This document shows positions 15,629 to 51,658 of a DNA stretch of 64,000 nucleotides, piece by piece; positions within the stretch are counted from its first letter, which is position 1; each line of letters begins with the position of its first letter. The DNA comes from a virus (Duplodnaviria > Heunggongvirae > Uroviricota > Caudoviricetes): positions 258,386-322,385 of IMG/VR virus record IMGVR_UViG_3300043080_000590; one strand, written 5' to 3'. The position numbers were made by a program, and so were the translations under genes. Below the pieces are notes generated by a model. The model was not told the origin of the DNA, ran no database searches, and saw only the letters and a list, made by a program, of their open reading frames with translations.

Positions 15629-18136
15629 TTACTTTTTTAATAATCTCATATCAAACTTTTTAATTTCCCAAGCTTCTTCTGTTCTATATAATTTTTCTCT
15701 TGTTCTGGCGTGTCTACGAAGCATAGGTGTATAATCTTGAAAATCAAACACAATAGCTCTTTTCTTTTCTTTACCTGTTTCAGGATTTTTATATAGTCTT
15801 AATACTCTACCCACTCTTTGAAAAGCTCTTGTGGAACTACGACCACCACCTGCTAATATCAAAATCTCTAAGTTAGGTATGTCAAGTCCTTCATCTGCTA
15901 TTGTACTACCTATTAAGATTTCTACAAAACCATCTCTTACACCTTGAATAACAGCCTTTCTTCTTACAGCATCATCCTTACCTGATAAAAATTCTACATT
16001 AGCAATTCTAACTAATTTATCTTTACCTGTCTTATCATCAGTTACTTGAACTGCTTTTTTTACTATTTCTATCTTTTTAGATAACATTTTTAATATTGTT
16101 TCTCCGTGTTCTACTTGTTGAATTAATATTAAGATAGGTGCGTGTTTTACTTCTCTCATTTTAACTGCTATACTAACAACAATTTGATTTCTTTCTATAT
16201 TATTAGCAATAGCTTCTTTATAAACTTTATTATAAGATTTACCTTGAAAAACTCTTTTGTAAGGAATAAAGTAAATAGTACAAGGCACTAAATATCCCCA
16301 TTCAATAAGTTTGCTTGCTGAAATATCATTTTCTTCTTTTCTTCTATCTAGTGCTGCTTCTAATAATAAATCAGCACCATCTTCTCTCCACGGAGTGGCT
16401 GATACACCAATTCTATAATAAGCATTTTTAGCCCATTTAGATATTTCTACAAATGTATTAGAACCTATATGATGACATTCATCAAATAAAATCATATTAG
16501 AATCTTTAATATCTTCTTCTGTTGTTGATTGAGCAGAATAAACAGTTATATCTCTTTTCTTGTTTATGCCACCACCAACAATACCTACTTCTTCCCCTAA
16601 AAACTTTCCAATTTCATCTTTTAGCTGTGTACATAAAGTTAATTTATCAGCAAAAATTGAAACAGGTCTAACATTAAACTTATCAATTAATCCTGCCATT
16701 ATAAATGTATTATGCGTTACTATAAAATCTTTACAAATAAATGTATGTAATGGACTATCTACTGCTATACACTTCATTTCAGACTTTGTAGGTAATGGAG
16801 TTATTGAAACAATTTTTAAAGCATTATAATGATGATTTTTGCCTATTCTTCTATTCTTAAATCTTTCAGTATGTTTTTTTGATGTAAATAATTTATCATC
16901 ACAGCCACGAACATGAATATACCACGTTTTGTTTCTATATCTATCACTATTAATTGTTCTTTTATCTAATACAATTTTCGCTCTATATCCAAGACTATTT
17001 AATAAAAATTGTACATCTTCTACTAATCGTTTGCTAACGGAACAATAAGTAATATGTCCTTTACTATTTACAGTACCATCTGTATCAAATAGTCCTTGTA
17101 AAAGTGCTATTCTGTCATTAACATCAGAAAATTTATATTCTTCGGGAATAAATTTATCTTCGCTTTTAATTCTTCCAAAAACCTTATGTATATAATCTCT
17201 TAAATTATCTTTTTTTCCACCGCAACCATATGTGTATTGAATCCTGTCTTTATGTCCATTTTTAAATTCTCCACCAAATTGTCTTGCTAAATCTTTTACT
17301 TTATTAATTACATCTTCCTCTGTATTTGTAAAAGTAATTTGTCTTTGAGAAAAGCCACCATCGCCTAATAATGCTCCCAATAAATATGGCGGTAAAAATA
17401 AATCTTTTTTCTCAAACTGAATTGGCTTACATACGGGAATGCTTAGAACTAAATTTCTTCCTGTTTTGATTTTATGATTGTTTAATATTTCTTCAACAGT
17501 TTTTACTTGCCATTTATTTTTTGAAAGATTGTCTCTTGTTGCAAATTTCCATAAATGATTTTTACAACATTTAATAGTTGTACCATCGTTAAATACTATT
17601 TCATATTCTTGTTGCTCACCTTGTGGATATTCTCCGATAACAGTTGTTTTATCTCCATTTTCATCAAAAACAATACTTCCTACGTGAATATCTTTTAATG
17701 GAACAAAACCATCAGGGGTTAGAATTGGCGTATCTAAGGGAATCGACTTGCCGCCGCCCGTACTGACCCTTACTATTTCCCTGTTTGAGGCGTTATCAAT
17801 TATTTTTTGTTGATAATCTCTCGCTTTTAACTCTACTTTTGAACCATCAGGTAAAGTCAAATATTCTTGTAATGCAAAATTAGCATTTTGTTCGGGTACT
17901 ACTCTTGTATCTGTTATTTTATATCCAATATTATTTTCTTCTAATATTTCATATACATAATTTAATAAACCAGTATAGGTCTTTTTTGTTTTTCTATTGT
18001 ACAAATGTCTTATTTGAATATATTCACAACCAAATTCTTTTACTTCAAAACTTAATTTTTCCCATATCTTTAATTCAATATCTTTTGAAAAACCAATCAA
18101 CTTTGAATATACATTATCAATTATAATTTCTGCCAT
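15629..18136 (-). CDS. SF2 (DExH) DNA/RNA helicase precursor containing an intein
   Basis: Walker A STGGGK|...|T is split by the intein. Motif II is DECHH and motif VI is QRVGRVLR. The extein is about 489 aa. Confidence 0.8.
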   Translation of the reverse strand: MAEIIIDNVYSKLIGFSKDIELKIWEKLSFEVKEFGCEYIQIRHLYNRKTKKTYTGLLNYVYEILEENNIGYKITDTRVVPEQNANFALQEYLTLPDGSKVELKARDYQQKIIDNASNREIVRVSTGGGKSIPLDTPILTPDGFVPLKDIHVGSIVFDENGDKTTVIGEYPQGEQQEYEIVFNDGTTIKCCKNHLWKFATRDNLSKNKWQVKTVEEILNNHKIKTGRNLVLSIPVCKPIQFEKKDLFLPPYLLGALLGDGGFSQRQITFTNTEEDVINKVKDLARQFGGEFKNGHKDRIQYTYGCGGKKDNLRDYIHKVFGRIKSEDKFIPEEYKFSDVNDRIALLQGLFDTDGTVNSKGHITYCSVSKRLVEDVQFLLNSLGYRAKIVLDKRTINSDRYRNKTWYIHVRGCDDKLFTSKKHTERFKNRRIGKNHHYNALKIVSITPLPTKSEMKCIAVDSPLHTFICKDFIVTHNTFIMAGLIDKFNVRPVSIFADKLTLCTQLKDEIGKFLGEEVGIVGGGINKKRDITVYSAQSTTEEDIKDSNMILFDECHHIGSNTFVEISKWAKNAYYRIGVSATPWREDGADLLLEAALDRRKEENDISASKLIEWGYLVPCTIYFIPYKRVFQGKSYNKVYKEAIANNIERNQIVVSIAVKMREVKHAPILILIQQVEHGETILKMLSKKIEIVKKAVQVTDDKTGKDKLVRIANVEFLSGKDDAVRRKAVIQGVRDGFVEILIGSTIADEGLDIPNLEILILAGGGRSSTRAFQRVGRVLRLYKNPETGKEKKRAIVFDFQDYTPMLRRHARTREKLYRTEEAWEIKKFDMRLLKK
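16709..17746 (-). other. Intein (346 aa) with LAGLIDADG homing endonuclease domain inside the helicase P-loop
   Basis: It begins with Ser (SIPLDTPILT...) directly after GGGK. It ends ...FIVTHN and is followed by Thr+1, which restores GKT. The two LAGLIDADG motifs are LLGALLGDGG and LLQGLFDTDGTV. Confidence 0.7.
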
Positions 18137-19069: not shown

Positions 19070-19972
19070 TTGTATATGATAAATATAACAAAATGCACAA
19101 GTACAGCTAATACAACAGTTAAAAGTAATAGAAGTATTAAGTATATTGTTATTCATTACACAGCTGGCACAAGAAGTACTGCTGGTTCTGCTAAAGCAAT
19201 TGCTCAATATTTTGGCAGAAGTTCAACAGGTGCATCAGCAGATTTTATTGTAGATGATGCTACTATTGTTCAGTTTAATCCTGACCCCAAAAATCGTTAT
19301 TGCTGGTCAGTAGGTGGTAGCAAATATTCAAATCCTGCCACTTCCGTGGGTGCTACTTATTATAACAAGTGTACTAATTCTAACAGTATCAGTATTGAGA
19401 TGTGTAGTAGTAAAACTAATACATCAAGTTTACTTGCCAGTGACACGGACTGGTATATTACAGATGCTACAACAAATAATGCAGTAGAATTGACAAAGTA
19501 TTTGATGAACCTTTATAATATTCCTGCAAGCAATGTTATAATGCACCACCACGTTACAGGCAAGATTTGTCCTAATCCTTGGTGTGTGAATGAGAGCAGA
19601 CTTAGCAAGTGGAATGCTTTCAAAGCAAAATTAACAGGTACTACTGTTGAAAAAGAAGAAGTAAAAGAAACTAAGAAATTTATTTTTGTTAAAGCAAATA
19701 TTTTAGGCAAGAGCTGTGAAATTACAGGCTTTAATGAAAATGATGAAAATTGGGTAAAAATTACTTCTATTTTAGAAGCTTTAGGCTACACAACAAAGTG
19801 GAATAATACAAAAAAGAGAGCTATTGCTGTTAAAGACGGTAAAGAAACTTTTTTGGATATTAGAACATATATATCTGTTGATAGTATTTCTTTTGCTCCT
19901 CTTAGGGAGTTGTGTGAATTCTTGGGATTCACAGTAACTTGGAGTAAAGAAGACGGCATAATTGTAAAATAA
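19070..19972 (+). CDS. N-acetylmuramoyl-L-alanine amidase (endolysin) with C-terminal cell-wall-binding region
   Basis: Amidase_2/PGRP signatures are present: IVIHYTAG, ISIEMC and MHHHVTGKICPNP. RBS GAGGTG. Confidence 0.8.
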   Translation: MYMINITKCTSTANTTVKSNRSIKYIVIHYTAGTRSTAGSAKAIAQYFGRSSTGASADFIVDDATIVQFNPDPKNRYCWSVGGSKYSNPATSVGATYYNKCTNSNSISIEMCSSKTNTSSLLASDTDWYITDATTNNAVELTKYLMNLYNIPASNVIMHHHVTGKICPNPWCVNESRLSKWNAFKAKLTGTTVEKEEVKETKKFIFVKANILGKSCEITGFNENDENWVKITSILEALGYTTKWNNTKKRAIAVKDGKETFLDIRTYISVDSISFAPLRELCEFLGFTVTWSKEDGIIVK

Positions 19973-20003
19973 AATATACTAATTACTTCGATTGAAAAAA
20001 AGA

Positions 20004-20036
20004 AAAGGACTACATTTGTTTGTAGTCCTTTTTTAT
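20004..20036 (+). terminator. Rho-independent terminator after endolysin
   Basis: Hairpin aaaggactaca / tgtagtcctt followed by TTTTT. Confidence 0.7.
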
Positions 20037-20060: not shown

Positions 20061-20653
20061 GATGATTTTTAAAATTATTAGTATTAATACGAAATTATAA
20101 TTGATAATGTATATTCAAAGTTAATATTTACTTTCCAGTATATTAGTATTAATACTTTATTTTTTAATAATTCAAAAACAGGTTGGGGCATATTTACTTT
20201 CCAGTATATTAGTATTAATACAATGCAGTGTTAGACGTTGCGACGGCTAAAGTCAAATTTACTTTCCAGTATATTAGTATTAATACTCAGTTACGTTGAA
20301 GCAAGGCAATAAGTCTTTTAATTTACTTTCCAGTATATTAGTATTAATACATTTTATATTAACCTCACTTGCAACAAGCCAATATAATTTACTTTCCAGT
20401 ATATTAGTATTAATACTAAATTCACCTCTTGTTACTCCTCATCATTAGTATCATTTACTTTCCAGTATATTAGTATTAATACGAAGAAATAATGTAACTT
20501 ACGATAAATCTACTTTATTTACTTTCCAGTATATTAGTATTAATACTTTTCAACTGGTGTAAATGCAATATTCACAGCATATTTACTTTCCAGTATATTA
20601 GTATTAATACCCGTTCAGTGTACAGTAGTACATTTTATTAGTATTTGAAATAC
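20061..20653. CRISPR. CRISPR array: 8 identical 30-nt repeats (ATTTACTTTCCAGTATATTAGTATTAATAC) plus degenerate repeats at both ends; about 9 spacers of 34-36 nt
   Basis: Perfect repeats start at 20126, 20192, 20257, 20321, 20387, 20453, 20517 and 20581, with a regular 64-66 nt period and unique spacers. The reverse complement GTATTAATACTAATATACTGGAAAGTAAAT ends in GTAAAT like clostridial type I-B repeats, so minus-strand transcription is possible. No cas genes are present in the window. Confidence 0.85.
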
Positions 20654-20850
20654 TAAATCTGTCGAACCCATTGAAAAGTTAATTCCAAATATTATTTTTT
20701 ATTCATTATTTACTTTATTCTCACAAAAACATAAGTAAATAAAGTGTTTTCAAACTTTCTGTCTATCTCTTAGTAATTTTACATTATTATACATCGACAG
20801 AATTAAAAAACTAAAAAAATAAAAAGTATTTATACTATAATATTGAATTT

Positions 20851-20985
20851 GGTGAGTGGTGGGCTTCTTAGGTCAAAGCGGTGCAAGTCTTAAAGTTCTA
20901 TCGCAAGTATTGAACGATATGTGAAGTGAACTACCCTCACCTTTCGGACGGTAAATCGCCCGAAGTCACCAACTAAGGGTGCTTA
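20851..20985. ncRNA. GC-rich island (about 50% GC in a 27% GC background) with nested helices; candidate structured non-coding RNA of unknown class
   Basis: GGTGAG-t-GG at 20851-20859 pairs with CC-CTCACC at 20933-20940. There is an internal hairpin ttcgg-acgg-taaat-cgcc-cgaa. A TATAAT-like box lies at 20836-20841 just upstream. No ORF is present. Confidence 0.3.
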
Positions 20986-21181
20986 TAAAAAATAGTTTTA
21001 AAAACTTTACAATATTATAATATAATATTTTCCTTAATTTGTCAAGTGTTTTTTGTAAAAAATTGTATTGTTAAAACGTCTCAGAATCAATTTTAAGACC
21101 TATAACGATTTATTGTGAATAAATATTAAGTAAACTATTTATACCCTCTTAAAATTGATTTTAAAACTATTTAAACAATAA

Positions 21182-21215: not shown

Positions 21216-21545
21216 TTGTTGAACTTCATTATCTGTTTCTTCTGCAATTTCTCCCATTTCAGCTTTAACTGCTTCTTTATATTTATTAAAAAACATAGTA
21301 CAATAACTACCAAAGTTTGAAAAATCCGTGCCCATGCTACAATTCGGATTGAAAGGATTGTTAGAATCATTTCCTGGAAAGCAACTATCTGAAATTGTAA
21401 CATTGTTTTCATTTTCAAAACTTTTAATTGCAGTAGAAAAGTTATTCATTACTCTTATTAACTCATTTCTACATAAATCAAATTGACCTTCTAATTCTTG
21501 TGTATTAATCGCAGAAGTTTTCATCAATCTTTTCATTTTTAACAA
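21213..21545 (-). CDS. Hypothetical protein (110 aa)
   Basis: ORF in an intergenic island. It overlaps the spurious ORF 21197-21418 in the other frame. Confidence 0.4.
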   Translation of the reverse strand: MLKMKRLMKTSAINTQELEGQFDLCRNELIRVMNNFSTAIKSFENENNVTISDSCFPGNDSNNPFNPNCSMGTDFSNFGSYCTMFFNKYKEAVKAEMGEIAEETDNEVQQ

Positions 21546-22143
21546 CCTCTCTATTGATTATTTTATAAATAAATATACTACCTAACGAATTTCCCAAAGT
21601 TACAAATAAAATAAATGATATAGAATAAATATTTATTTTATTTGCTAAAAATATATAAAACATATCAGCAACACAGTGTTCAGCACCAATTAAAATAAAT
21701 ACTGCTATACATAATATTACTGCTACTATTTTCATTATTGCTTCATTACTTTTTTTATATACTTCAACTGCAATAAATATTAAAATACCGCATAAAAATG
21801 AAAAAAATAAAATTTCAAAAATAGTATAATTTAATTTCAACTCAACTATTGTTTCTATATTAATGGCTTTTATTTTACAAGTATTTCTATAACACAATGC
21901 TGTAATAAAACATCCAAGCAGATTTCCTATCCATATAATTAATAATTCTAAGGAATTTTCATTCTCAGTAATATAACCAATTTTCCCTGTATACAAATCT
22001 AATTTAAAAAAAAGTATTGTTAGTAATCCTATGGAAAATAAAAAACTGCCGATAATTTTGTCAGTGGATAAGAATACGATACTTGCAATACTAATCATAA
22101 TTCCTGCTAGAAATGCAGATAAAAATAAATTAAGAAATTTCAA
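21505..22143 (-). CDS. Polytopic membrane protein (about 6 TM), possible superinfection-exclusion or abortive-infection type
   Basis: 212 aa that are strongly hydrophobic. It is divergent from the replication module. Confidence 0.45.
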   Translation of the reverse strand: MKFLNLFLSAFLAGIMISIASIVFLSTDKIIGSFLFSIGLLTILFFKLDLYTGKIGYITENENSLELLIIWIGNLLGCFITALCYRNTCKIKAINIETIVELKLNYTIFEILFFSFLCGILIFIAVEVYKKSNEAIMKIVAVILCIAVFILIGAEHCVADMFYIFLANKINIYSISFILFVTLGNSLGSIFIYKIINREVVKNEKIDENFCD

Positions 22144-30868: not shown

Positions 30869-31615
30869 ATGAAAATATTAAAAAGATTATTACCAATTAT
30901 ATTTATTTTAATATTATGGGGTATAGGTAGTTTATTTACAAAACCTTTATTTTTACCATCGCCGATAAAAGTATTTAATACATTTATCTCTTTATTACAA
31001 AATGGTATGCTAGTAAAAGGGTTTGTATATTCATTTATTAGAATATCTATTGCAACATTATTATCAATGTCTATAAGTGTTATTTTATCTATTTTAATTA
31101 TGAATAGTAAAGTAATTGATGATTTAATGACACCTATAACGAATTTTTTAAGATATTTACCTATTACAGCATTTTATCCATTGTTAATGATGTGGTGCGG
31201 AATAAATGAAAGAATGAAAATAAGTTTTTTATTTTTAGCAACTTTTGTTTATTTTTTACCTACATTAGTTTTAACAATGAAAGATATAGACCAAAATCTA
31301 ATAGATACGGCATTAACAATAGGAGTTAAAAAATATCAGTTAGTATATAGAATAATCTTACCTTATTGCTTACCTGTTATTTGTAAGACTTATTTAATGA
31401 TGTATGGAATTGGTTGGACTTATATAGTGATTGCTGAAACAGTAAATGCTAAGTTTGGATTAGGGCATTTAATAAATGTTGCAACGTCAAGAGGTAGAAC
31501 TGACCAAGTATTTGTTGTATTGATAATAATTATTTTATTTAGTTATTTATTTGATACATTATGCTCTTATGTAATTGAAAAAATATTTAAATGGAAATAT
31601 ACAGAAAGGAAGTAA
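30869..31615 (+). CDS. ABC transporter permease, NitT/TauT (SsuC/TauC-like) family
   Basis: It has 6 TM helices and matches BPD_transp_1-type sequence (…IAETVNAKFGLGHLI…). Confidence 0.7.
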   Translation: MKILKRLLPIIFILILWGIGSLFTKPLFLPSPIKVFNTFISLLQNGMLVKGFVYSFIRISIATLLSMSISVILSILIMNSKVIDDLMTPITNFLRYLPITAFYPLLMMWCGINERMKISFLFLATFVYFLPTLVLTMKDIDQNLIDTALTIGVKKYQLVYRIILPYCLPVICKTYLMMYGIGWTYIVIAETVNAKFGLGHLINVATSRGRTDQVFVVLIIIILFSYLFDTLCSYVIEKIFKWKYTERK

Positions 31616-31619
31616 TATA

Positions 31620-32429
31620 ATGAATAATAAAAACAATAAAGATAAGTTTAATTTTTTAAAATCTATAATTATTATAGGTGTTATCGTTTTAATTTTAATT
31701 ATATTGTTACTTTGTTCAATAAGAGTTGTTCCTGGCGGTTCAACAGGTGTAGTAGTTAGATTAGGTGCAATACAAGAAGATACTTTAAAAGAAGGTTCAA
31801 GCTTTGTTACACCATTTATTACAAAAGTTGTTAAAATAAATAATAAAGTAGTAAGAACTGATGTAACAGGTACTTCTGCTTCTAAAGATTTACAAACAGT
31901 AACATTTACTGTATCTGTTAATTATCAAGTAATTCCTGAAAAGTCTGCTTACATATATAGAACATTAGGTGAAGATTACGAAAATGTAGCATTAAGACCT
32001 GCTGTACAAGAATGTGTAAAGTCTGTTGTATCTAAATATACAGCAGAAGAATGTATTACTAATAGACAAGAATTAAGTACTCAAATGAAAGAGGAATTAA
32101 ATCATAAAGTCTATGAGTATGGTATTGTTGTAGCAGATATAAATGTAATAAATTTTGATTTCTCAGCTGAATTTAATGCTGCAATTGAACAAAAAACTAC
32201 TGCACAGCAAAACGCTTTAAAGGCTGAACAAGATTTAGCAAGAATTAAAATAGAGGGAGAACAAAAGATTGCACAGGCAGAAGCTGAAGCAAAGGCAAAT
32301 GAGATTAAAAATGCTCAAATTACCGATAATACTTTAAAAATGAAGTTCATTGAAAAATGGAATGGTGAACTTCCTGCTGTTGTTGGTTCAGAGGATAATT
32401 TATTTAGTGTAGATAATTTCATAAAATAA
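31620..32429 (+). CDS. SPFH/band-7 (stomatin/prohibitin/HflC-like) membrane protein
   Basis: An N-terminal TM helix is followed by an SPFH core (VVPGGSTGVVVRLGA...) and a C-terminal A/E/Q-rich coiled coil. The start was moved to the ATG at 31620, after RBS GGAAG. The ORF-track start overlaps the permease. Confidence 0.7.
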   Translation: MNNKNNKDKFNFLKSIIIIGVIVLILIILLLCSIRVVPGGSTGVVVRLGAIQEDTLKEGSSFVTPFITKVVKINNKVVRTDVTGTSASKDLQTVTFTVSVNYQVIPEKSAYIYRTLGEDYENVALRPAVQECVKSVVSKYTAEECITNRQELSTQMKEELNHKVYEYGIVVADINVINFDFSAEFNAAIEQKTTAQQNALKAEQDLARIKIEGEQKIAQAEAEAKANEIKNAQITDNTLKMKFIEKWNGELPAVVGSEDNLFSVDNFIK

Positions 32430-34083: not shown

Positions 34084-34112
34084 TTGACAATGTTTAAAAT
34101 TTGTTGTATAAT
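34084..34112 (+). promoter_or_regulatory. Sigma-A-type promoter (TTGACA-17-TATAAT)
   Basis: TTGACA at 34084-34089 and TATAAT at 34107-34112. It lies inside the ORF-track start of the ATPase gene, which implies a downstream start codon. Confidence 0.6.
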
Positions 34113-34154
34113 GAACTTGTTAAAATACCTATATTTTATGGAGGTACAACCGAA

Positions 34155-34751
34155 GTGATTATTAAAAATTTACATTTTCAATATGATAATAATATTGTTT
34201 TTGATAAATTAAATTTAAAATTTGAAGATAATCAAATAAATTGTATTGTTGGTAAATCTGGTGTAGGCAAATCTACATTATTAAAATGTATTGCAGGTTT
34301 GTTAAAATATAAGGGAGATATTTTAATAAATGATGAAAAAATAAATATTGATGATGTTTTTATGATGCACCAAAGCTATACTAATTTTCCTTGGCTTACT
34401 TGTTTAGATAATGTTTTATTCCCTATAAAAATAAAAAGAAAAATAAATAGTGAAGATAAACAGCAAGCTATTGATTTGTTAAATAAAGTAGGACTTAAAA
34501 ATAATTTAAATGATTATCCCAATCAATTATCAGGTGGTATGCAACAAAGACTAGCATTAGCAAGAACATTATTAATACAACCTAAAATATTACTTATGGA
34601 CGAACCATTATCCGCATTGGATAATAATACAAGAACTCAAATGCAAAACCTAATATTAGACTTACACAATTCTATACATAACACAATTATTCTTGTTACG
34701 CATAGTGAATATGAAGCTAAATTATTAGGTGATAAAATAACAAAATTATAA
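34155..34751 (+). CDS. ABC transporter ATP-binding protein (NitT/TauT family)
   Basis: Walker A GKSGVGKST, ABC signature LSGGMQQR and Walker B LLMDEP. The start is reassigned to the GTG at 34155, after GGAGGT. Confidence 0.75.
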   Translation: MIIKNLHFQYDNNIVFDKLNLKFEDNQINCIVGKSGVGKSTLLKCIAGLLKYKGDILINDEKINIDDVFMMHQSYTNFPWLTCLDNVLFPIKIKRKINSEDKQQAIDLLNKVGLKNNLNDYPNQLSGGMQQRLALARTLLIQPKILLMDEPLSALDNNTRTQMQNLILDLHNSIHNTIILVTHSEYEAKLLGDKITKL

Positions 34752-35323: not shown

Positions 35324-36127
35324 ATGATTAATGGCACGTTATTTGGAATAGGTGCAGTATTAGCAATATTGGCAACAACCAAAGTTTTATTTCCTAATGC
35401 TAAATTATTTATTCTTATTGAAGGTTTCTTTAGTGGTTGGGTAGAAGATAAAACTAAAACCCCTGACGGAGCTAAAGCTGTATATAATAAAAAAATTCAA
35501 GAATTACAAGAATCATATAATAAGGCAAATGATACTTTACAAAAAGTAACAGGTAGAAAAATGACAATTCAAAAAGAATTAGATAGTTATACGGAAGAAT
35601 TATCTAGTATAGAAAAGAATTGTGAAGCGTTAGCAAAGAAACAAATGTTTGATAAGATAGAACCTTTATCAGAACGTAGAGAAGATATTCTTTTAGAAAT
35701 AGAGCAAAGGAAACACATTCTTGAAGAATTAATTCCGCAGGTTGAAGAAGCTAAAATGATAAATACTAAACTTCAAGAAAACCTTTCTAATATGAAAAAA
35801 GAAAAAGAGAGAATTTTAAGAGAATTAGAAACTAAGAAGCAAATGAAAGAAATCTATGATGAAATGGATGAACTTAAAAATGTTTCAACAACAAATCAGA
35901 TGATAAATACAGTTCGTGAAGGAGTTAAGGAGCTTTCAGAACAGGCTGAGGGTGCTAAAGAGATTTATAATAATAAAAAGTCTACTAAGTATGAAAGAGC
36001 CAAAGAAGAAGCTCAAAAAGCCATATCTTCTAATTATGTAGAAGAATTAAAAAAGAAATATGGTAATAATTCTACTAAGACAAATAGTGCTGAGGTAGAG
36101 AAACAAAAAGTAACTGTTAAAGCTTAA
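35324..36127 (+). CDS. Membrane-anchored long coiled-coil protein, PspA/IM30-like organisation
   Basis: An N-terminal TM helix is followed by about 230 aa of heptad-rich coiled coil. RBS GGAAGGAG. Confidence 0.3.
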   Translation: MINGTLFGIGAVLAILATTKVLFPNAKLFILIEGFFSGWVEDKTKTPDGAKAVYNKKIQELQESYNKANDTLQKVTGRKMTIQKELDSYTEELSSIEKNCEALAKKQMFDKIEPLSERREDILLEIEQRKHILEELIPQVEEAKMINTKLQENLSNMKKEKERILRELETKKQMKEIYDEMDELKNVSTTNQMINTVREGVKELSEQAEGAKEIYNNKKSTKYERAKEEAQKAISSNYVEELKKKYGNNSTKTNSAEVEKQKVTVKA

Positions 36128-36208: not shown

Positions 36209-37762
36209 ATGTTGAGATTGACAACAAAAGGGAAAATTGCCATTTTAATTTTGCTTTTAATTATTATTGGCGTAGCAGGATTCTTTGGTGTAAAAAAGGG
36301 TTGGATTAAGACAGGTAATATTAAAGAAAAGATTGAAAATATTACTTCTTCTGTTGGTTCAACAAGTAAGGCAAGTAAGAGTAAAACAACGCAGGAAAAG
36401 ACCAATGTAATCAATTTATCTTATGACGAATGGACAGGGTGGAAAGAGATTTTAGATGCTCAATCAAGAGGATATTATGATGAAGAAGGTATTACTGTTA
36501 ATATCAGTGTAATGAATGATGCTACTGATAGTTCTAATGCTTTAATTAGCGGAGATTTAGATGCAGCAGGTTATACTGTTAATAGATATGCTTTCTTAAT
36601 GGATAAATTCAAGCAGAACAATGTTGATGTTGCAATGCCTATTATTATTAATAGAAGTAGCGGAGGTGATGGCATTATTGCTGATGCTGATATCAATTCT
36701 ATTAAAGATTTAGTAGGTAAAAAGGTTGGTGTTCCAAGATTTAGCGAAGCACAAACTTTAGTTGAATGGTTTGTTTCTAAGTCTGATTTAACAGACGATG
36801 AAAAGAGTAAAATAGAATATGTATATTTTGATACACCTGACGAAACTGCAAGTGCTTATTTCGCAGGTGAAATAAATGCTGCTGCTACTTGGCAACCATA
36901 TTTAACACAAGCACAAGAAAGCACAGATAGTCATATTCTTATTGATACAAGCAATGCTACAAGTCTTGTATTGGACGGTATTGTATTTAGACAGGATTAT
37001 CTTGATGTAAATGCAGATACAGTTGAAAAGTTCATCAGAGCTACTTTAAAGGCTTATGATGATTACAACGATACTGATTATACAGCATTAAGAAATAATA
37101 TGTCTATGTTTTCAAGTATGAGTGATGAAGAAATTGCTGATACATTACCTGATGCAACATTATTAAATTGGAATGAAAATATGGAAGTATTAGCCGATGA
37201 AGCTGTTATTCTTTATAGAGATATGTCTAATATTTGGAATGATTTAGGAGAAACAGCTTATCCTGATATGGCAGAACAAGCATTTACTACTACATATATG
37301 AGTGCTTGTGAAGATTTAAAAACTGCTGATATAAAAACTGTTTCAGTTACAGCAGAACAAAAGGAAGAAGTTAAGAATAATTCAGATAATTATGATGCTT
37401 TAATAAATGCACAAGCAACAATTAACTTTAAGGCAAATTCAGCAGTATTTGCAGACCAAGAAGAAGCTGCTAAAGCATTAGACGAATTTGTTGATACTGC
37501 TAAAATGCTTGATGGTGCAATTATTATGATTGAGGGTAACTCAGCTAATACAAATGGTGCTACTGAAAATAGTGAGTTTGATATTAAACTTACAGAACAA
37601 AGAGCTAAGACTGTTGCTAATTATTTCATTAGTAAAGGTATTGATAGTTCAAGATTTATTACTGTTGGTAATGGTATTGGTAATCAGATAGCAGATAACT
37701 CCACAGAAGAAGGTAGAGCTAAGAATAGAAGAACTGATATTAAATTCATTATTGCTGAATAA
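36209..37762 (+). CDS. Fusion protein: NitT/TauT-family substrate-binding domain (NMT1/SsuA-like) plus C-terminal OmpA-like peptidoglycan-binding domain
   Basis: It has an N-terminal TM anchor. The SBP region is …DAAGYTVNRYAFLMDK…. The OmpA-C motif is TVANYFISKGIDSSRFITVGNGIGNQIADNSTEEGRAKNRRTDIKF. Confidence 0.65.
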   Translation: MLRLTTKGKIAILILLLIIIGVAGFFGVKKGWIKTGNIKEKIENITSSVGSTSKASKSKTTQEKTNVINLSYDEWTGWKEILDAQSRGYYDEEGITVNISVMNDATDSSNALISGDLDAAGYTVNRYAFLMDKFKQNNVDVAMPIIINRSSGGDGIIADADINSIKDLVGKKVGVPRFSEAQTLVEWFVSKSDLTDDEKSKIEYVYFDTPDETASAYFAGEINAAATWQPYLTQAQESTDSHILIDTSNATSLVLDGIVFRQDYLDVNADTVEKFIRATLKAYDDYNDTDYTALRNNMSMFSSMSDEEIADTLPDATLLNWNENMEVLADEAVILYRDMSNIWNDLGETAYPDMAEQAFTTTYMSACEDLKTADIKTVSVTAEQKEEVKNNSDNYDALINAQATINFKANSAVFADQEEAAKALDEFVDTAKMLDGAIIMIEGNSANTNGATENSEFDIKLTEQRAKTVANYFISKGIDSSRFITVGNGIGNQIADNSTEEGRAKNRRTDIKFIIAE

Positions 37763-46268: not shown

Positions 46269-46673
46269 ATGGAAGTATGGAAATCAAAGAACAGACACAA
46301 GTATTTATTACAATATCATATAATCTTTGTATGTAAATACAGAAAGAAATTATTTACATTTGATAGAATATTAGATGACATAAAACAGTTTTCGTATGAG
46401 ATATGTCAAAAACACAGTGTAATAATTAAATATATGGAAACTGATAAAGACCATATCCATTATATGATAGAAACAGAACCAACGATGTCTGTTAGTAAAA
46501 TAGTAAATCTTATGAAAAGTTATACAACATATCATATATGGAAACGCTATTCGGTTTATTTAAGAAAACGCTATTGGAAAGAAAATACTTTTTGGACTAA
46601 TGGATGTTTTGCTTGCAGTGTAGGAAATGTTTCGGAAGAAATGTTAAAAGAATATATAGAAAATCAAGGTTAA
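46269..46673 (+). CDS. tnpA: IS200-like Y1 transposase TnpA
   Basis: 134 aa. The HxH motif is HIHYMIE and the catalytic Tyr region is YTTYHIWKRY. Confidence 0.8.
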   Translation: MEVWKSKNRHKYLLQYHIIFVCKYRKKLFTFDRILDDIKQFSYEICQKHSVIIKYMETDKDHIHYMIETEPTMSVSKIVNLMKSYTTYHIWKRYSVYLRKRYWKENTFWTNGCFACSVGNVSEEMLKEYIENQG

Positions 46674-46680
46674 AAAGGCG

Positions 46681-47794
46681 GTGACAGCGATGTTAAAGGC
46701 ATACAAATACAGGATTTATCCCAATGAAGAACAAAAGATATTGTTAGCAAAAACATTCGGCTGTTGCCGTTTTGTTTATAATAAAACACTTGCATACCGT
46801 AAAGAAAAATATGATAGTGAAAGAAAGTCTGTTAGTAAAACAGATTGTAATAATTACTGCAACAGAGAATTAAAGACAGCATATGAATGGCTGAAAGAAG
46901 TGGATAAATTTGCCCTTACCAATGCTGTTTACAATATGGATAATGCTTATCAAAAATTTTTTAAGGAACATACAGGCTATCCTAAATTTAAAAGTAAGCA
47001 CGACAATAACAAATCATATACAACCAATTATACCAATGGTAATATTGACGTAGATTTTGAGAACGGAAGAATAAAACTCCCAAAACTTAAACAAGTAAAG
47101 GCAAAACTACACAGAGTTTTTGACGGACAAATAAAATCAGCCACAGTTTCACAAGTACCGAGCGGAAAATTTTTTGTATCTGTTCTGGTGGAAACCGAGC
47201 ATAAAGAACTTCCACATAAACAAACGAATATTGGGTTAGATTTAGGAATTAAGGATTTGTGTATAACATCTAATGGTAAAATTTATAAAAATCCTAAAGT
47301 AATAAAAAGGTATGAGAAAATGTTGACAAAGTTGCAAAGACAACTTGCACACAAAAAAAGAGGAAGTAATAATTATTATAAAGCAAGGAAACGGGCTGCA
47401 TTGTGTTATGAAAGAATAAAAAATACAAGAAAAGATTATTTGCATAAAATTTCAAAAGAGATTATAAGCGAAAACCAAGTTATAGTTTCAGAAGATTTGC
47501 AAATAAAAAATATGATGAAAAACGATAATCTTTCAAAAAATATAGCTGATGTATCATGGTATGATTTGACAAGGCAGTTGGAATATAAAGCAAAATGGAA
47601 TGGCAGAGAATACGTTAAAGTAGATACTTTTTATGCAAGCAGTCAAATTTGTTCCGAATGTGGATATAAGAACGCAGAAGTAAAGGATTTGTCTGTTAGA
47701 AAAATGGATATGTCCGAAATGCGGAAAAGAGCATAACAGAGATACAAATGCAGCAAAAAATATATTAGCGGAAGGACTAAGACAAATAGCATAA
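46681..47794 (+). pseudogene. tnpB: IS605 OrfB/TnpB (RuvC-like, Zn finger) with +1 frameshift in an A-run near 47700-47710
   Basis: The ORF stops after ...[15 protein letters not shown]. The +1 frame continues [29 protein letters not shown], which is the canonical TnpB zinc-finger end, down to the stop at 47792-47794. Confidence 0.7.
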
Positions 47795-49062: not shown

Positions 49063-50019
49063 TTGATTTTAGAAAATCAAACAGTTGTTATTCAATGGAC
49101 GGGGCGTAATAGAAAAGAATATGAGGAATTAGGATATATCTTTACTAAATTTGGAGACCCGTTAGAAATTAAAGTAGAACATTTACATAAAGGTTCTCAT
49201 GAAGAAGTTTGGTATGAATGTGATAATTGTCAAAAAAAAGATAAAAGAGAATATAGAAAACTTCTTAAACAAGATATACATTATTGTAAAAAATGTTGTA
49301 CAATTAGACGAGAAGAAACTTGTATGAAAAAATATGGAGTAAAAAATACATTTCAGAGTGAAGAAAAAAAGGAAAAAATGCGACAAACTTGGAATAGAAA
49401 ATATGGAGTAGATAGCCCTTTAAAAAATAAAGAAATACACGATAAAGTAGAAGCAACCTGTATGAAAAAATATGGGGTAAAAAATACTTTTCAAGTAAAA
49501 GAGTTTCAAGAAAAAGGTAGACAGACAATAATTGAACGCTATGGAGAAGATTATTATAAAGAAAAAGCACTTACAATGATAAGAGCTTTAAATAATAAAA
49601 ATAGCTCAACAAGAACTTCTAATAATCAAGCAAGTATTTGTAATTGGACAAATGGTACTTTAAATTATAGAGTAAATAAATATTCTTTAGATATTAGAGT
49701 AAATGATAATTTGTATATTGAATACGATGGTTCAGGACATACATTACCTGTTATTTTAAAACAAGTTTCTAAAAAAGTTTTTAAGAAAAAAGAATTATAC
49801 AGAAACAAATATATGGAAAACTTGGGATATAAACTTATAAGGGTTATTAATCGTCAAGATGTTGATTTAAATAAAGATGAATTTTTAAAGTTATATAATT
49901 TCTGTGTTGATTATCTTAAAAATACAAATTATAAATGGATAAAAATTTATTATGACAAACAAATTGTTATAAGTAATATTTTTAAAAAAACTTTTGAAGA
50001 GGTGATAAATAATGAGTAA
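49063..50019 (+). CDS. Putative free-standing homing-endonuclease-like protein: N-terminal triplicated KYGVxNTFQ modules plus C-terminal Vsr/DUF559-like (PD-(D/E)xK) nuclease domain
   Basis: Three repeats of C(M)KKYGVKNTFQ... are present. The C-terminal segment YIEYDGSGH...ENLGYKLIRV resembles the DUF559/Vsr fold. It abuts the gyrB start, and the stop and start overlap. Confidence 0.45.
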   Translation: MILENQTVVIQWTGRNRKEYEELGYIFTKFGDPLEIKVEHLHKGSHEEVWYECDNCQKKDKREYRKLLKQDIHYCKKCCTIRREETCMKKYGVKNTFQSEEKKEKMRQTWNRKYGVDSPLKNKEIHDKVEATCMKKYGVKNTFQVKEFQEKGRQTIIERYGEDYYKEKALTMIRALNNKNSSTRTSNNQASICNWTNGTLNYRVNKYSLDIRVNDNLYIEYDGSGHTLPVILKQVSKKVFKKKELYRNKYMENLGYKLIRVINRQDVDLNKDEFLKLYNFCVDYLKNTNYKWIKIYYDKQIVISNIFKKTFEEVINNE

Positions 50020-50329
50020 TAATTATGATGTTGGGCAAATATCGTCTTTGGAAGGATTAAAATCCGTGCAATGTAAGCCAGCCATGTATGTAGGTTCTAC
50101 CTCCCAAGATGGTGTAAACCAAATAATTTATGAAGTATGGGATAATTCATTTGATGAATACAATGCAGGGTATGGAAATAGTGTTGATGTTCTTATTGAT
50201 AAGGACAATTATATAACTATTGAAGACCACGGTAGAGGTATTCCTGTTGGACCTCATGCTACTTGGAAAAATCCCGATGGTACACCGCAAGATACATTAA
50301 CAGGCGTATTAACAAGATTACACTCAGGT
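50012..50329 (+). CDS. gyrB: DNA gyrase subunit B, exon 1 (ATPase N-terminus, ends ...TRLHSG)
   Basis: Sequence ...VQCKPAMYVGSTS...EVWDNSFDE...EDHGRGIPV... is GyrB-like. The ORF stops 5 codons into intron 1. Confidence 0.8.
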
Positions 50330-50661
50330 AAGGGAATGATTGCTTGAGTATAAAACCACTTTAATTGAATTTTATATAAATAAAAATAATATAAAATTGC
50401 TGGAAACCTCTAAGATTTAAATTACTACAACATAATCGGAAATGATAGGTGTGAAAGTTAAAAAAATTTAAAATACATGAGCAATCAGCAGCCAAAATTC
50501 TAAGTATGATTAAGTTATATATGAATAAGGTTCAACGACTATCGAAAACGTAAGAAATATTTTTACAAGTGAGTAGAGTACATATATGAAAATATATGGA
50601 AACGAGTGGCACATTTTTTATGTGAAGATATAGTCTAATTTATATTGAAAAATATAAGTTG
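50330..50661 (+). ncRNA. Group I intron 1 (ORF-less, 332 nt)
   Basis: P1 forms between exon CUCAGGU and the IGS GCUUGAG at 50343-50349, with a U-G wobble at the splice site. Core elements are P aattgctggaaa (50393), Q aatcagcagcc (50481), R gttcaacgactatcg (50529) and S aagatatagtct (50624). The 3' terminal nucleotide is G, and the spliced product reads LHSG|GKLF. Confidence 0.8.
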
Positions 50662-51658
50662 GGTAAATTATTTGCTAATGGGGAATCAGGATATTTTAGT
50701 ACGATAGGCACGTATGGTCTGGGAGCAAAACTTACTAACGCTTTATCTGATGATTTTATCGCTAAAGTGAAAAGAAATGGTAGAATTTATCGGCAAACAT
50801 TTAAAAAAGGTAGACCTACCTCTGATGTTGAAATTATTGGTACTGTTGATTTAAATGATACAGGAACTAAAATTACGTTTCATCCTGACTCTACAATATT
50901 TAAAACGACAATTCAACCAAATGATAAAAAATTACAAAACAGACTTGATGAAATAACTTCTTTAAATACTAATTTAAAAGTTAATTATAAAAATGAATTG
51001 GCTAATGTAGATACAACATTTTATTATCCTAATGGTATCGCTGATTATATAAATAAGAAGTTGTTAAAAGATAAAAAACTTTTGTTCGAAGAACCAATTT
51101 ATTATTCAAGTGAATACGTGGATAATGATGAAACTATTAAAGTTGAATTTTCTTTAATGTATGTTGATGATGTGGAAAGTAATGAAATTATTAAAACATT
51201 TGCTAATAATGTATCAACAAAAGAACACGGTACACATTTAGTAGGTTTTAAAGAGGGTTACAAAGAAGCTATTAATCAATATTCAATAAGTAAAAAATGG
51301 ATAACCGAACCCATTGAGATTAAATATCTAATGGATAATATTTGTTTAATTGTATCTGTTAAGTTAAGAGAATGTGAGCTTGATGGACAAACAAAAAATA
51401 AATTAGGTAATTTAATAGCTAAAGATGGTGTTGCTAATGTTGTTAAAGAATACTTTAATAAATTAAGTAAAGAACAACAAGTAGTAATACAAACAATAGT
51501 TGAAAGAGCTAATAAAGTAAAAGAAGCAGAAGAAGCTGCAAGGAGAGCAAGAATAAACACAAGGACTGCTAATAAAATAAAGAAAATAGCATTACCTGGT
51601 AAACTTGCTGATTGTAGTAGCAATAAAGGATATAGTGAGTTATTCTTAGTTGAAGGAG
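50662..51658 (+). CDS. gyrB: DNA gyrase subunit B, exon 2 (…GKLFANGESGY…LADCSSNKGYSELFLVEG)
   Basis: GyrB ATPase-transducer and the start of TOPRIM. The ORF-track ORF is 50659-51666. The exact 3' boundary is uncertain by 1-2 nt. Confidence 0.75.

What the first reader, a model, noticed from the sequence alone, without database searches (positions are those of the whole stretch)
20061..20653. Cas-less CRISPR array carried in a phage-like genome, directly downstream of the endolysin
Eight perfect 30-nt repeats, plus degenerate copies at both ends, alternate with about 9 unique 34-36 nt spacers. No cas gene exists anywhere in the 64-kb window. The reverse-complemented repeat ends ...GGAAAGTAAAT, resembling clostridial type I-B repeats. 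This suggests the array is transcribed on the minus strand and serviced by host Cas proteins. Phage-borne arrays are known in Clostridioides prophages and are thought to target competing phages. Spacer 2 (aatgcagtgttagacgttgcgacggctaaagtcaa) is notably GC-rich, which indicates a foreign target.
Basis: partly seen in the sequence, partly recalled or inferred. Interest (0 to 1): 0.8.

Follow-up and report, generated by a model that had tools for sequence, protein, structure and literature searches.

The report
Cas-less CRISPR array in huge phage
A very large bacteriophage carries a real CRISPR array with a bacterial-style control region but no cas genes nearby, and its oldest spacer matches the helicase gene of the phage's own lineage; this is a known kind of phage-versus-phage weapon, documented here in unusual detail.

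Summary
The array is real. It has eight identical 30-nt repeats (20126-20610), a degenerate terminal repeat (20061-20090) and eight unique 34-36 nt spacers. It is read on the minus strand. The region 20611-20799 is a leader that shares three spaced motifs with leaders of bacterial type I-B arrays. The "degenerate copy" at 20624-20653 is leader sequence, not a repeat. The repeat, GTATTAATACTAATATACTGGAAAGTAAAT, matches at most 24/30 positions of bacterial repeats ending TGGAATGTAAAT. One such array lies next to cas7-cas5-cas3-cas4-cas1 of type I-B. No cas gene occurs in the window or 10 kb either side; the only relative is an IS200/IS605 TnpB. The genome resembles Bacillus phage G and may reach about 500 kb, so cas genes elsewhere are not excluded. 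The oldest spacer matches the phage's own helicase gene 2 kb away at 34/35 positions. That site has a CCA PAM, and the single mismatch is at seed position 3. Related phages carry an array at the same locus with entirely different spacers. Most likely the array borrows Cas proteins in trans to exclude rival phages. No host with this repeat and no other target was found. This is a new member of a known kind.

The parts
20003..20032 (.). Hairpin terminator shared by the endolysin gene (+) and the array transcript (-). It lies 29 nt past the terminal repeat.
   Evidence: The terminator scan found a 12-bp stem followed by a T run on the minus strand. A T run also follows the hairpin on the plus strand.
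20061..20090 (-). Degenerate terminal (leader-distal) repeat, GTATTAATACTAATAATTTTAAAAATCATC. Its 5' half is intact and its 3' half has diverged.
   Evidence: It is 21/30 identical to the repeat. The same degenerate repeat is conserved in related phages L147 and L148.
20091..20125 (-). Oldest spacer. The crRNA-sense sequence is ATTAACTTTGAATATACATTATCAATTATAATTTC, a near-self match to the helicase gene.
   Evidence: It matches window 18096-18130 at 34/35 positions, and the homology ends exactly at both spacer borders.
20126..20610 (-). Eight identical 30-nt repeats (crRNA sense GTATTAATACTAATATACTGGAAAGTAAAT) and seven spacers of 34-36 nt.
20611..20799 (-). Leader. Features, with minus-strand sequence first and plus-strand coordinates after: proximal motif TCGACAGA at 20658-20665, 48 nt from the first repeat; distal inverted pair TGTCGA (20794-20799) and TAGACA (20760-20765); a -10-like TATAAT (20786-20791) between them. 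The inferred transcription start is near 20779.
   Evidence: Alignment with bacterial type I-B leaders. 37 of 55 bacterial leaders have the distal pair and 36 of those also have the proximal motif, against 0.001 per shuffled leader. The motifs are 100% conserved in related phages.
18093..18130 (+). Protospacer of the oldest spacer (18096-18130) with its 5' PAM CCA (18093-18095). It lies in codons 3-14 of the phage's own helicase gene (15629-18136, minus strand). The one mismatch is at spacer position 3 and is a synonymous TTG/TTA Leu change.
   Evidence: The PAM CCA/CCT was derived here for the closest bacterial array and is published for C. difficile type I-B (PMC8406132, PMC4556805).
20851..20985 (.). 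GC-rich structured non-coding element directly upstream of the leader, at the place where cas2 sits in bacterial loci. Its strand and function are unknown, and whether it belongs to the array module is unproven.
   Evidence: It is conserved in all array-carrying relatives and has 5 compensatory base-pair changes. It has no Rfam match and contains no ORF of 30 aa or more.
21017..21045 (-). Strong sigma-70-like promoter match (TTGACA-17-TATTAT) pointing through the GC-rich element towards the array. It lies inside the block conserved with variant L005.
   Evidence: for the promoter match. Identity with L005 runs to 21063.

Best explanation
This is a functional-looking, cas-less CRISPR array of the type I-B lineage, carried by a very large, phage-G-like myovirus. 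It is transcribed on the minus strand from a promoter inside its own roughly 190-nt leader and terminates at the hairpin it shares with the endolysin gene. The pre-crRNA is most likely cut by a Cas6 and loaded into a type I-B Cascade supplied in trans, most probably by the bacterial host. The resulting complexes destroy other mobile elements entering the same cell, above all close relatives of the phage. The phage's own copy of the one identified target is spared by a mismatch in the seed.

Shown here:
- the anatomy of the array;
- its orientation;
- leader and repeat kinship with arrays next to type I-B cas genes;
- a PAM-flanked near-self protospacer;
- a complete change of spacers between related phages.

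Inferred:
- transcription and processing;
- the source of the Cas proteins;
- interference itself.
For: 1. Array anatomy: eight identical repeats, eight unique spacers of 34-36 nt, and a degenerate leader-distal repeat followed by a terminator.
The best identity to the phage repeat is 24/30. One such array (L123) is flanked by Cas7/Cst2-DevR, Cas5b, Cas3, Cas4 and Cas1b, with the Cas1b and Cas7 NCBIfam type I-B models above their cutoffs. Others (L062, L039) are flanked by Cas3, Cas4 or Cas1.
3. Leader homology: the phage has the proximal TCGACAG motif at -48, where 40 of 58 leaders (57 bacterial plus the phage's own) have it at -45 to -48. It also has the distal TGTCGA...TAGACA pair, as do 37 of 55 bacterial leaders against 0.001 per shuffled leader. 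The leader also ends ...ACGG; CGG is the commonest ending among the leaders (12 of 58).
4. Protospacer: the oldest spacer matches the phage's helicase gene at 34/35 positions (32-nt exact core, E = 9e-14). Homology ends exactly at both spacer borders, and the 5' flank is CCA.
5. PAM: CCA or CCT flanks most mapped protospacers of the closest bacterial array, L062. It is also the published C. difficile type I-B PAM (PMC8406132, PMC4556805). CCW makes up only 1.5% of trinucleotides in the window.
6. Seed: the one mismatch is at position 3, inside the 8-nt seed (PMC4556805).
7. Relatives: phages 84-90% identical (L147-L151) keep the CCA PAM but differ at spacer positions 1 and 6. Three of the seven differences in the first 240 nt of the gene fall in the six PAM-proximal bases.
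8. Turnover: those relatives have the same terminal repeat, leader and locus, but 2 or 5 entirely different spacers.
9. Precedent: virus-borne arrays that target nearby genes of close relatives, while the carrier's own locus is mutated, are documented (PMC6858448, PMC11656645, PMC7162821, PMC4173771).
Against: - No bacterial array with this repeat was found. The tandem 13-mer CTGGAAAGTAAAT is absent from 185,579 species-representative genomes.
- The phage repeat differs from the family at position 14 (C in 92% of family repeats, T in the phage). It also differs at position 24, inside the 8-nt 5' handle (T in 99%, A in the phage). Compatibility with a known Cas6 or Cascade is therefore unproven.
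- Seven of the eight spacers, and all seven spacers of the relatives, have no target in the window, its flanks, the related loci or INPHARED. The window array also has no credible match in PLSDB. Cores of six window spacers (the oldest and five of the seven others) are absent from IMG/VR.
- Only about 84 kb of a genome that may be 503 kb was inspected. The phage could encode its own Cas proteins.
- There are no expression data.
- Whether a single position-3 mismatch is enough to prevent self-cleavage in this system is unknown.
Confidence: 0.6

Rival explanations
1. The phage encodes its own Cas proteins elsewhere in its genome of about 500 kb and services the array itself, as some huge phages do.
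For: The endolysin occurs on a 502,690-bp contig. The baseplate protein resembles that of the 497.5-kb Bacillus phage G. Only about 84 kb was inspected. Huge phages with partial or complete CRISPR-Cas systems are known (PMC7162821). The phage repeat differs from every sampled bacterial repeat at two conserved positions. A private, co-evolved Cas6 or Cascade would explain that.
Against: No cas gene occurs in the window or within 10 kb either side. cas operons usually adjoin their array, and here the site where cas2 lies in bacterial loci holds a non-coding element instead. The leader and PAM are those of bacterial type I-B loci.
Confidence: 0.15
2. The array acts mainly as an RNA decoy or regulator rather than as a guide store. 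Its variant repeats would soak up host Cas6 or Cascade, or would mimic crRNA-like regulatory RNAs, and so weaken host immunity (Racr-like or crlRNA-like).
For: Phage-encoded repeat mimics that inhibit CRISPR-Cas are documented (PMC10651486; bioRxiv 10.1101/2024.10.29.618823). The phage repeat carries substitutions at the two most conserved free positions of the family, one of them in the 5' handle. That could yield defective complexes. No host array with the same repeat was found.
Against: Racrs are typically solitary repeats without a leader or spacers. Here there is a complete leader and eight spacers of canonical length. One spacer has a canonical PAM-flanked protospacer. The spacers change completely between relatives. 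All of this points to real spacer acquisition and guide use. The two roles are not mutually exclusive.
Confidence: 0.1
3. The array is an inert relic. On this view a piece of a host array, including a spacer the host had acquired against this phage, was captured by recombination and is carried without function.
For: The near-self spacer is the oldest one and is what a host immunised against this phage would carry. The window array is identical in the one other contig that spans it, from a second sample, and a further contig matches as far as it reaches.
Against: All eight repeats are perfectly identical. The leader motifs are 100% conserved across phages that are only 84-90% identical overall. 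The locus holds entirely different spacer sets in relatives. This implies maintenance and turnover, not decay.
Confidence: 0.08
4. The oldest spacer regulates the phage's own helicase. One route is Cascade binding without cleavage, made possible by the seed mismatch. The other is plain antisense pairing, because the minus-strand transcript is complementary to codons 3-14 of the helicase mRNA.
For: The spacer is complementary to the helicase mRNA beside its start codon. The target has an intact PAM and one seed mismatch. Repression by nuclease-free or mismatched CRISPR complexes has been proposed for huge phages (PMC7162821).
Against: Related phages with the same helicase and locus lack this spacer altogether, so it is not a conserved regulatory feature. 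The pattern fits the published 'targets relatives, own copy mutated' case (PMC6858448).
Confidence: 0.05
5. It is an ordinary tandem repeat, not a CRISPR array.
For: None beyond its periodicity.
Against: The intervening sequences are unique and of constant length. The repeat and leader are homologous to those of arrays that sit next to cas genes. One spacer has a PAM-flanked protospacer.
Confidence: 0.01

Closest known systems
CRISPR arrays carried by Clostridioides difficile prophages (phiCD630-1/2 and others; PMC4173771, PMC4556805, PMC8406132)
   Same: Both are cas-less arrays in phage genomes of low-GC Bacillota. Both have type I-B style repeats ending ...GTAAAT. The 5' PAM is CCA/CCT in both. 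The leader-distal repeat is degenerate in both. Spacers are directed at other phages.
   Different: In C. difficile the prophage repeats are those of the host's own arrays, and processing and interference are shown experimentally. Here no host array with the same repeat is known. The repeat is 30 nt, not 29 nt. The leader belongs to the TCGACA-motif subfamily; arrays with C. difficile-like repeats in the scan (for example C. moniliforme and C. thailandense) instead carry an ATTTACTGCAA leader motif. The carrier is a phage-G-like giant phage and not a temperate phage of about 50 kb.
Cas-less or cas-poor compact arrays of huge phages (Al-Shayeb et al. 2020, PMC7162821)
   Same: The array is compact (9 repeats here, against a published median of 6). 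It lies in a very large phage genome with no nearby adaptation or interference genes. In both cases the proposed role is to use host Cas proteins against competing phages.
   Different: That study reported phage-host repeat identity for some cases, which is not found here. The present case adds a full bacterial-type leader, a PAM-flanked near-self protospacer with a seed mismatch, and spacer replacement between near relatives.
Virus-borne mini-CRISPR arrays of Saccharolobus portogloboviruses SPV1/SPV2 and of many phages (Medvedeva et al. 2019, PMC6858448; review PMC11656645)
   Same: All are cas-less and preceded by a host-like leader. Spacers hit genes close to the array in closely related viruses. 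The carrier's own locus bears point mutations that prevent self-targeting. Related viruses carry different spacers at the same locus.
   Different: Mini-arrays hold 1-2 spacers and this one holds 8. Those are archaeal type I-A/I-D contexts. Reciprocal targeting between co-occurring relatives was shown there; here only one spacer has a known near-target.
Bacterial type I-B arrays with 30-nt repeats ending TGGAATGTAAAT (for example Clostridiaceae bacterium M8S5, Ruminococcus sp. AM36-2AA, Peptacetobacter sp. AB800)
   Same: Repeat length and 3' end, spacer length (34-39 nt), CCW PAM and the three-part leader motif architecture are shared.
   Different: The bacterial arrays sit next to cas7-cas5-cas3-cas4-cas1-cas2, and the phage array does not. 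The phage repeat has T instead of C at position 14 and A instead of T at position 24.
RNA anti-CRISPRs (Racrs, solitary repeat units; PMC10651486)
   Same: Both are phage-encoded copies of CRISPR repeats that depend on host Cas proteins binding them.
   Different: Racrs lack spacers of canonical length and lack leaders, and they act by forming defective complexes. This locus has the full anatomy of an acquiring, guide-producing array.

Membership tests
CRISPR array (generic) | Three or more near-identical direct repeats of 23-50 nt at regular spacing | tested here: met
   There are eight identical 30-nt repeats with a 64-66 nt period.
CRISPR array (generic) | Unique spacers of nearly constant length | tested here: met
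   There are eight spacers of 34-36 nt, mutually unrelated.
CRISPR array (generic) | A leader at one end and a degenerate repeat at the other | tested here: met
   The leader at 20611-20799 is homologous to bacterial leaders. The terminal repeat is 21/30 identical.
CRISPR array (generic) | Spacers derived from mobile elements, with a PAM next to the protospacer | tested here: met
   This holds for 1 of 8 spacers: 34/35 identity to the phage-lineage helicase gene with a CCA PAM. The other seven have no known target.
CRISPR array (generic) | Transcription and processing into crRNAs | not testable with these tools
   Only a promoter-like -10 element and a terminator were identified. No RNA data are available.
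Type I-B associated array | Repeat sequence shared with arrays adjacent to type I-B cas operons | tested here: inconclusive
   The phage repeat falls in the family range (best 24/30; family pairwise mean 22.1/30). It deviates at conserved positions 14 and 24, and no identical bacterial repeat was found. Type I-B cas genes were verified next to family member L123.
Type I-B associated array | Leader architecture of the family | tested here: met
   The proximal TCGACAG motif lies at -48 and the distal TGTCGA...TAGACA pair ends at -149, as in 36-37 of 55 bacterial leaders.
Type I-B associated array | 5' PAM CCN/YCN on protospacers | tested here: met
   CCA flanks the one mapped protospacer. The same PAM was derived from spacers of the closest bacterial array and is published (PMC8406132).
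Type I-B associated array | Adjacent cas6-cas8b-cas7-cas5-cas3-cas4-cas1-cas2 operon | tested here: not met
   No cas gene occurs in the 64-kb window or 10 kb either side. The array is an orphan within the inspected 84 kb.
Virus-borne cas-less array used in inter-virus conflict | Located in a viral genome without cas genes | tested here: inconclusive
   The phage context is clear: baseplate, tail lysozyme, endolysin, replication genes and similarity to phage G. However, only about 84 kb of a possible 503 kb was seen.
Virus-borne cas-less array used in inter-virus conflict | Repeats identical or nearly identical to those of the host's arrays | tested here: not met
   No such bacterial array was found in the species-representative genomes or in the JGI metagenome collection.
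Virus-borne cas-less array used in inter-virus conflict | Spacers match closely related viruses while the carrier's own locus is mutated | tested here: met
   The oldest spacer matches the carrier's own helicase at 34/35 (seed position 3 mismatch). It matches relatives L147-L151 at 33/35 (positions 1 and 6). The PAM is kept in all of them. No sequence with a perfect match was found.
Virus-borne cas-less array used in inter-virus conflict | Different spacers at the same locus in related viruses | tested here: met
   L147 has 2 spacers and L148/L150 have 5. None is shared with the window or between the two sets.
RNA anti-CRISPR (Racr / solitary repeat unit) | Solitary repeat or repeat-like RNA without canonical spacers or a leader | tested here: not met
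   The locus has nine repeats, eight canonical spacers and a full leader.
Type V (Cas12/TnpB-guided) array | Array adjacent to and used by a Cas12-family effector | tested here: not met
   The only RuvC-type ORF (46681-47736) scores above the IS200/IS605 TnpB equivalog cutoff (456 against 425 bits). It is paired with an IS200 TnpA and lies 26 kb from the array.

The most novel reading that the evidence does not exclude
The conserved block [promoter 21045-21017, structured GC-rich RNA 20985-20851, type I-B leader, array] may be one phage-specific module. In this reading the variant repeats (A in the 5' handle, T at position 14) and the upstream structured RNA reprogram or disable the host's type I-B machinery, rather than simply borrowing it. 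The near-self spacer would then act as a tuned regulator or kin-discrimination device rather than a relic. This would be a phage counter-defence and competition device built from a whole captured CRISPR leader-array unit plus a new RNA.
Probability: 0.1. Interest if true: 0.75.

Novelty: new member of a known kind. Interest (0 to 1): 0.45.

Why it matters
Cas-less arrays in phages are known, but few cases let the logic be read from sequence alone. This one has a complete bacterial-type leader, which implies it can both be expressed and receive new spacers. It has a canonical PAM-flanked protospacer in the phage's own lineage, with the carrier protected by one synonymous seed change. Sequence differences between relatives cluster in that seed. 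The spacers are completely different in phages that are otherwise 84-90% identical.

Together these features make it a clean natural example of CRISPR-mediated competition between sibling giant phages. They also suggest concrete experiments, for example on repeat compatibility and seed tolerance. As a by-product, the work defines a three-part leader motif shared by many type I-B arrays across Bacillota, Fusobacteria and Brachyspira. It also reveals a new structured RNA next to the phage leader.

Tried and rejected
- Near-identical DNA in cultured phages: the 10 kb around the array has no match. A sensitive BLAST of the array against INPHARED and PLSDB gave only chance-level hits.
- Exact repeat in IMG/VR: none.
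- Tandem 13-mer of the repeat's 3' end: none in GTDB species genomes. The JGI metagenome scan gave four hits, which on inspection were unrelated non-CRISPR sequences.
- Spacer targets: exact cores of six spacers (the oldest, and those numbered 2, 3, 4, 5 and 7 from the leader-distal end) are absent from IMG/VR. A six-frame peptide comparison of spacers with the window and relatives found only the helicase match. Spacers of the related phages hit nothing in INPHARED.
- More distant IMG/VR relatives found through the helicase (L008-L010, on contigs of 63-182 kb) have no array within 10 kb.
- TnpB as the array's effector: rejected. It is a standard IS200/IS605 TnpA-TnpB unit 26 kb away.
- The right-hand 'degenerate repeat' as an old repeat: rejected in favour of leader sequence.
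- The GC-rich element as a cas2 remnant or a known RNA family: there is no nucleotide or translated similarity to the regions upstream of bacterial leaders and no Rfam hit at E of 10 or less.
- The TCGACA motif as a plain -35 box: rejected. No consistent -10 element follows it at 16-18 nt in the bacterial leaders I inspected.
- Repeat hairpin: folding gives only weak structures, no better than shuffled sequences.
- Walking further along the contig was not possible, because only window-encoded proteins can be looked up.
- Sample accessions were not found in the paper library, so environment and host remain unknown.
Full report
**Observation.** The sequence holds eight exact copies of ATTTACTTTCCAGTATATTAGTATTAATAC. 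They start at 20126, 20192, 20257, 20321, 20387, 20453, 20517 and 20581. No further copy with 8 or fewer substitutions exists on either strand, and there is no other CRISPR-like array in the window. A ninth, degenerate copy lies at 20061-20090 and is 21/30 identical, with its plus-strand 3' half intact. This gives eight spacers of 35, 36, 35, 34, 36, 36, 34 and 34 nt, unrelated to one another. The feature is real and far beyond chance. The stretch at 20624-20653 is out of register, only 13 nt from the last repeat, and is part of the leader (see below).

**Genomic context.**
- The array lies just downstream of an Amidase_2 plus Cu_amine_oxidN1 endolysin (19076-19972) and converges on it. The two share a hairpin terminator at 20003-20032.
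- The window is phage DNA throughout. It contains a tail lysozyme, a baseplate J/wedge protein and very large tail proteins. It also contains a helicase interrupted by a LAGLIDADG intein, DnaB, primase, an SbcC-like ATPase, and a gyrase B gene interrupted by a group I intron and an intein. There are methylases and several host-like transporters.
- The baseplate protein is 35% identical to gp188 of the 497.5-kb Bacillus phage G (E = 5e-50).
- The exact endolysin occurs on a contig of 502,690 bp. The source is therefore probably a phage-G-like giant phage.
- Pfam scans of 60 ORFs found no cas family. The single related ORF (46681-47736) scores above the NCBIfam cutoff for IS200/IS605 TnpB. It is preceded by an IS200 TnpA and lies 26 kb from the array.
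- Ten kb beyond each end of the window also lacks cas genes. 'Cas-less' is thus shown for about 84 kb, not for the whole genome.

**Orientation and leader.** The reverse-complemented repeat is GTATTAATACTAATATACTGGAAAGTAAAT. They come from Bacillota, Fusobacteria, Brachyspira and others, and nearly all have 30-nt repeats ending TGGAATGTAAAT.

I aligned the 260 nt upstream of the first repeat of these arrays with the minus strand of 20611-20870. The alignment shows a shared architecture:
- a proximal TCGACA(G/A) motif 45-48 nt before the first repeat, present in 40 of 58 leaders (57 bacterial plus the phage's own); the phage has it at 48;
- a distal inverted pair, TGTCGA, about 30 nt, T(C/A)GACA, present in 37 of 55 bacterial leaders and in 0.001 per shuffled leader; the phage pair ends 149 nt from the first repeat;
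- a leader ending in ...CGG in many cases.

In the phage a TATAAT box lies between the two distal half-sites (minus strand, 20791 to 20786). It predicts a transcribed leader of about 170 nt, similar to the 170-200 nt reported for C. difficile (PMC4556805). In bacteria the 3' end of cas2 precedes the distal motif. In the phage the homology stops there.

Three observations fix transcription to the minus strand: the leader homology, the degenerate repeat at the far end and the terminator beyond it. They also show that the whole leader-array unit is of bacterial type I-B descent.

**Type assignment.** One family member (L123, Clostridiaceae bacterium M8S5) is followed by Cas1b, Cas4, Cas3, Cas5b and Cas7/Cst2-DevR. 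The Cas1b and Cas7 type I-B models score above their curated cutoffs. Two of the closest repeats (L062 Ruminococcus sp. AM36-2AA and L039 Eubacterium plexicaudatum) lie next to Cas3, or to Cas3-Cas4-Cas1.

The best identity between the phage repeat and any sampled bacterial repeat is 24/30. This is within the family spread (pairwise mean 22.1). However, the phage departs at position 14 (C in 92% of family repeats, T in the phage). No bacterial array with the phage's 3' 13-mer exists in 185,579 species genomes. The repeat is therefore a peripheral member of a type I-B family, and its cognate Cas proteins are unidentified.

**The near-self spacer.** The oldest spacer (20091-20125) matches the phage's own helicase gene at 18096-18130. 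The match is 32 nt exact (E = 9e-14) and 34/35 overall, and the homology ends exactly at both spacer borders. In crRNA orientation the 5' flank of this protospacer is CCA.

I derived the PAM of the closest bacterial array independently. Nine spacers of L062 hit uncultured human-gut phage contigs. Their 5' flanks are CCA for most and CCT for one, with a few CCG or shifted variants in partial matches. CCA/CCT, more broadly YCN, is also the experimentally established C. difficile type I-B PAM (PMC8406132, PMC4556805). CCW accounts for only 1.5% of trinucleotides in the window.

The single mismatch is at spacer position 3, inside the 8-nt seed, and is a synonymous Leu TTG/TTA change in codon 13 of the helicase. 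This has the hallmarks of a spacer acquired by a type I-B adaptation machinery from this phage lineage. The carrier is plausibly protected by a seed mutation.

**Relatives.** Members of the endolysin's 90% cluster led to five contigs from other samples (L147-L151). They are 84-90% identical to the window and have the same gene order. All carry an array at the same place, with the same degenerate terminal repeat, a leader whose motifs are 100% conserved, and a repeat differing by one base (GTATTAATACTAATATATTGGAAAGTAAAT). Their spacers are entirely different: two in L147 and five in L148/L150, none shared with the window or between the two sets.

Their helicase genes keep the CCA PAM and 33/35 identity to the window's oldest spacer, with mismatches at positions 1 and 6. 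Of the seven differences between the window and L147 in the first 240 nt of the gene, three fall in the six PAM-proximal bases of the protospacer. If the differences were placed at random, the probability of this is roughly 5e-4; this is my binomial estimate, made after seeing the data. The array is thus a maintained, turning-over feature of this phage lineage. The target's seed is a hotspot of variation, as expected under CRISPR pressure.

A second contig of the window's own strain, from another sample (L005), has the identical array. It then diverges at 21063 into a methyltransferase island.

**Targets not found.** The other seven spacers, including the GC-rich one (46% GC), and the seven spacers of the relatives have no match in the window, its flanks, the related loci or INPHARED. 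The window array has no credible match in PLSDB either. Cores of six window spacers are absent from IMG/VR. The phage itself is absent from those collections, so this is weak negative evidence.

**Mechanism.** The most likely explanation is as follows. The array is transcribed from its leader and processed and loaded by type I-B Cas proteins supplied in trans, probably by the host. It is used against competing mobile elements, especially sibling phages, and the carrier escapes through its seed mismatch. I put my confidence at about 0.6.

This is the pattern described for virus-borne mini-arrays. There, spacers hit nearby genes of close relatives, the carrier's own locus is mutated and the spacers differ between relatives (PMC6858448, PMC11656645). 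It also matches C. difficile prophage arrays (PMC4173771) and cas-less arrays of huge phages (PMC7162821).

Shown: anatomy, orientation, family kinship, the PAM-flanked near-self protospacer and spacer turnover. Inferred: expression, processing, the origin of the Cas proteins and interference.

Rival explanations:
- own cas genes elsewhere in the genome of about 500 kb (0.15);
- a decoy or regulatory RNA role, suggested by the unusual handle and position-14 bases (0.1; PMC10651486);
- an inert captured relic (0.08);
- autoregulation of the helicase (0.05);
- a non-CRISPR repeat (0.01).

**Novelty and score.** This is a new member of a known kind. A specialist would not be surprised that a giant phage carries a cas-less array. 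The complete leader, the seed-mismatched self-protospacer, the clustering of variation in the seed and the neighbouring structured RNA make it a good study case. Interest 0.45.

Noticed in passing
window 20851-20985 (also L005 9141-9275, L147 11432-11564, L148 6531-6663): A GC-rich, ORF-free element lies directly upstream of the CRISPR leader. It is conserved in every array-carrying relative and shows 5 compensatory base-pair changes between the two clades. It has no Rfam match. It looks like a new structured RNA, with strand and function unknown. A TATAAT box (20836-20841) precedes it on the plus strand, and a strong TTGACA-17-TATTAT promoter match (21045-21017) points into it on the minus strand.
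   Followed up: partly
loci L015-L134 (bacterial arrays), e.g. L123, L062, L045, L100: Bacterial type I-B arrays with repeats ending TGGAATGTAAAT share a three-part leader motif across Bacillota, Fusobacteria and Brachyspira. It consists of TGTCGA, about 30 nt, TCGACA some 130-160 nt upstream, plus TCGACA(G/A) 45-48 nt upstream of the first repeat. Arrays with C. difficile-like repeats instead carry an ATTTACTGCAA motif. The function (operator or integration signal) was not determined.
   Followed up: partly
window 15629-18136 (-); L148 2486-3955; L009 180-1151 and 4455-5390: The helicase carries a LAGLIDADG intein in the window phage (835 aa). The intein is missing in relative L148 (489 aa). 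In the more distant IMG/VR phage L009 the gene is split into two genes on opposite strands whose ends look like a split intein.
   Followed up: partly
window 49063-53250: The gyrase B region is heavily invaded. A group I intron (50356-50657, Rfam 52.6 bits) separates the HATPase_c part (50012-50347) from the DNA_gyraseB part (50659-51666). An intein sits in the Toprim part (52414-53250). A DUF7487 ORF precedes the region.
   Followed up: no
window 46269-47736 (+): A complete IS200/IS605 unit (TnpA 134 aa and TnpB 351 aa, both above NCBIfam cutoffs) lies inside the phage genome.
   Followed up: yes
window 21505-22143 (-), 30869-31615, 34101-34751, 36209-37762, 31575-32429, 35324-36127: Host-like membrane and transport genes sit in a phage genome. 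They include a formate/nitrite transporter, an ABC permease, an ABC ATPase, an NMT1-type binding protein fused to an OmpA domain, an SPFH/Band 7 protein and a PspA/IM30-like protein.
   Followed up: no
window about 21063; L005 9356 onwards: There is a recombination breakpoint. A second strain is 99.8% identical up to 21063 and then carries a run of DNA methyltransferases, ClpP and ClpX in place of the transporter and replication genes.
   Followed up: partly
window 18099-18130 and 20091-20122: The spacer and its protospacer form a 32-bp perfect inverted repeat 2 kb apart, bracketing the MerR-like gene, a 136-aa ORF and the endolysin. A short-read contig (L007) breaks exactly at both copies. 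Whether the segment ever inverts is unknown.
   Followed up: no
whole window; protein cluster P0001: The exact endolysin occurs on a 502,690-bp contig, and the baseplate protein is most similar to Bacillus phage G (497.5 kb). This suggests an uncultured phage-G-like giant phage with 26% GC. It occurs in at least eight JGI samples and two SRA runs.
   Followed up: partly
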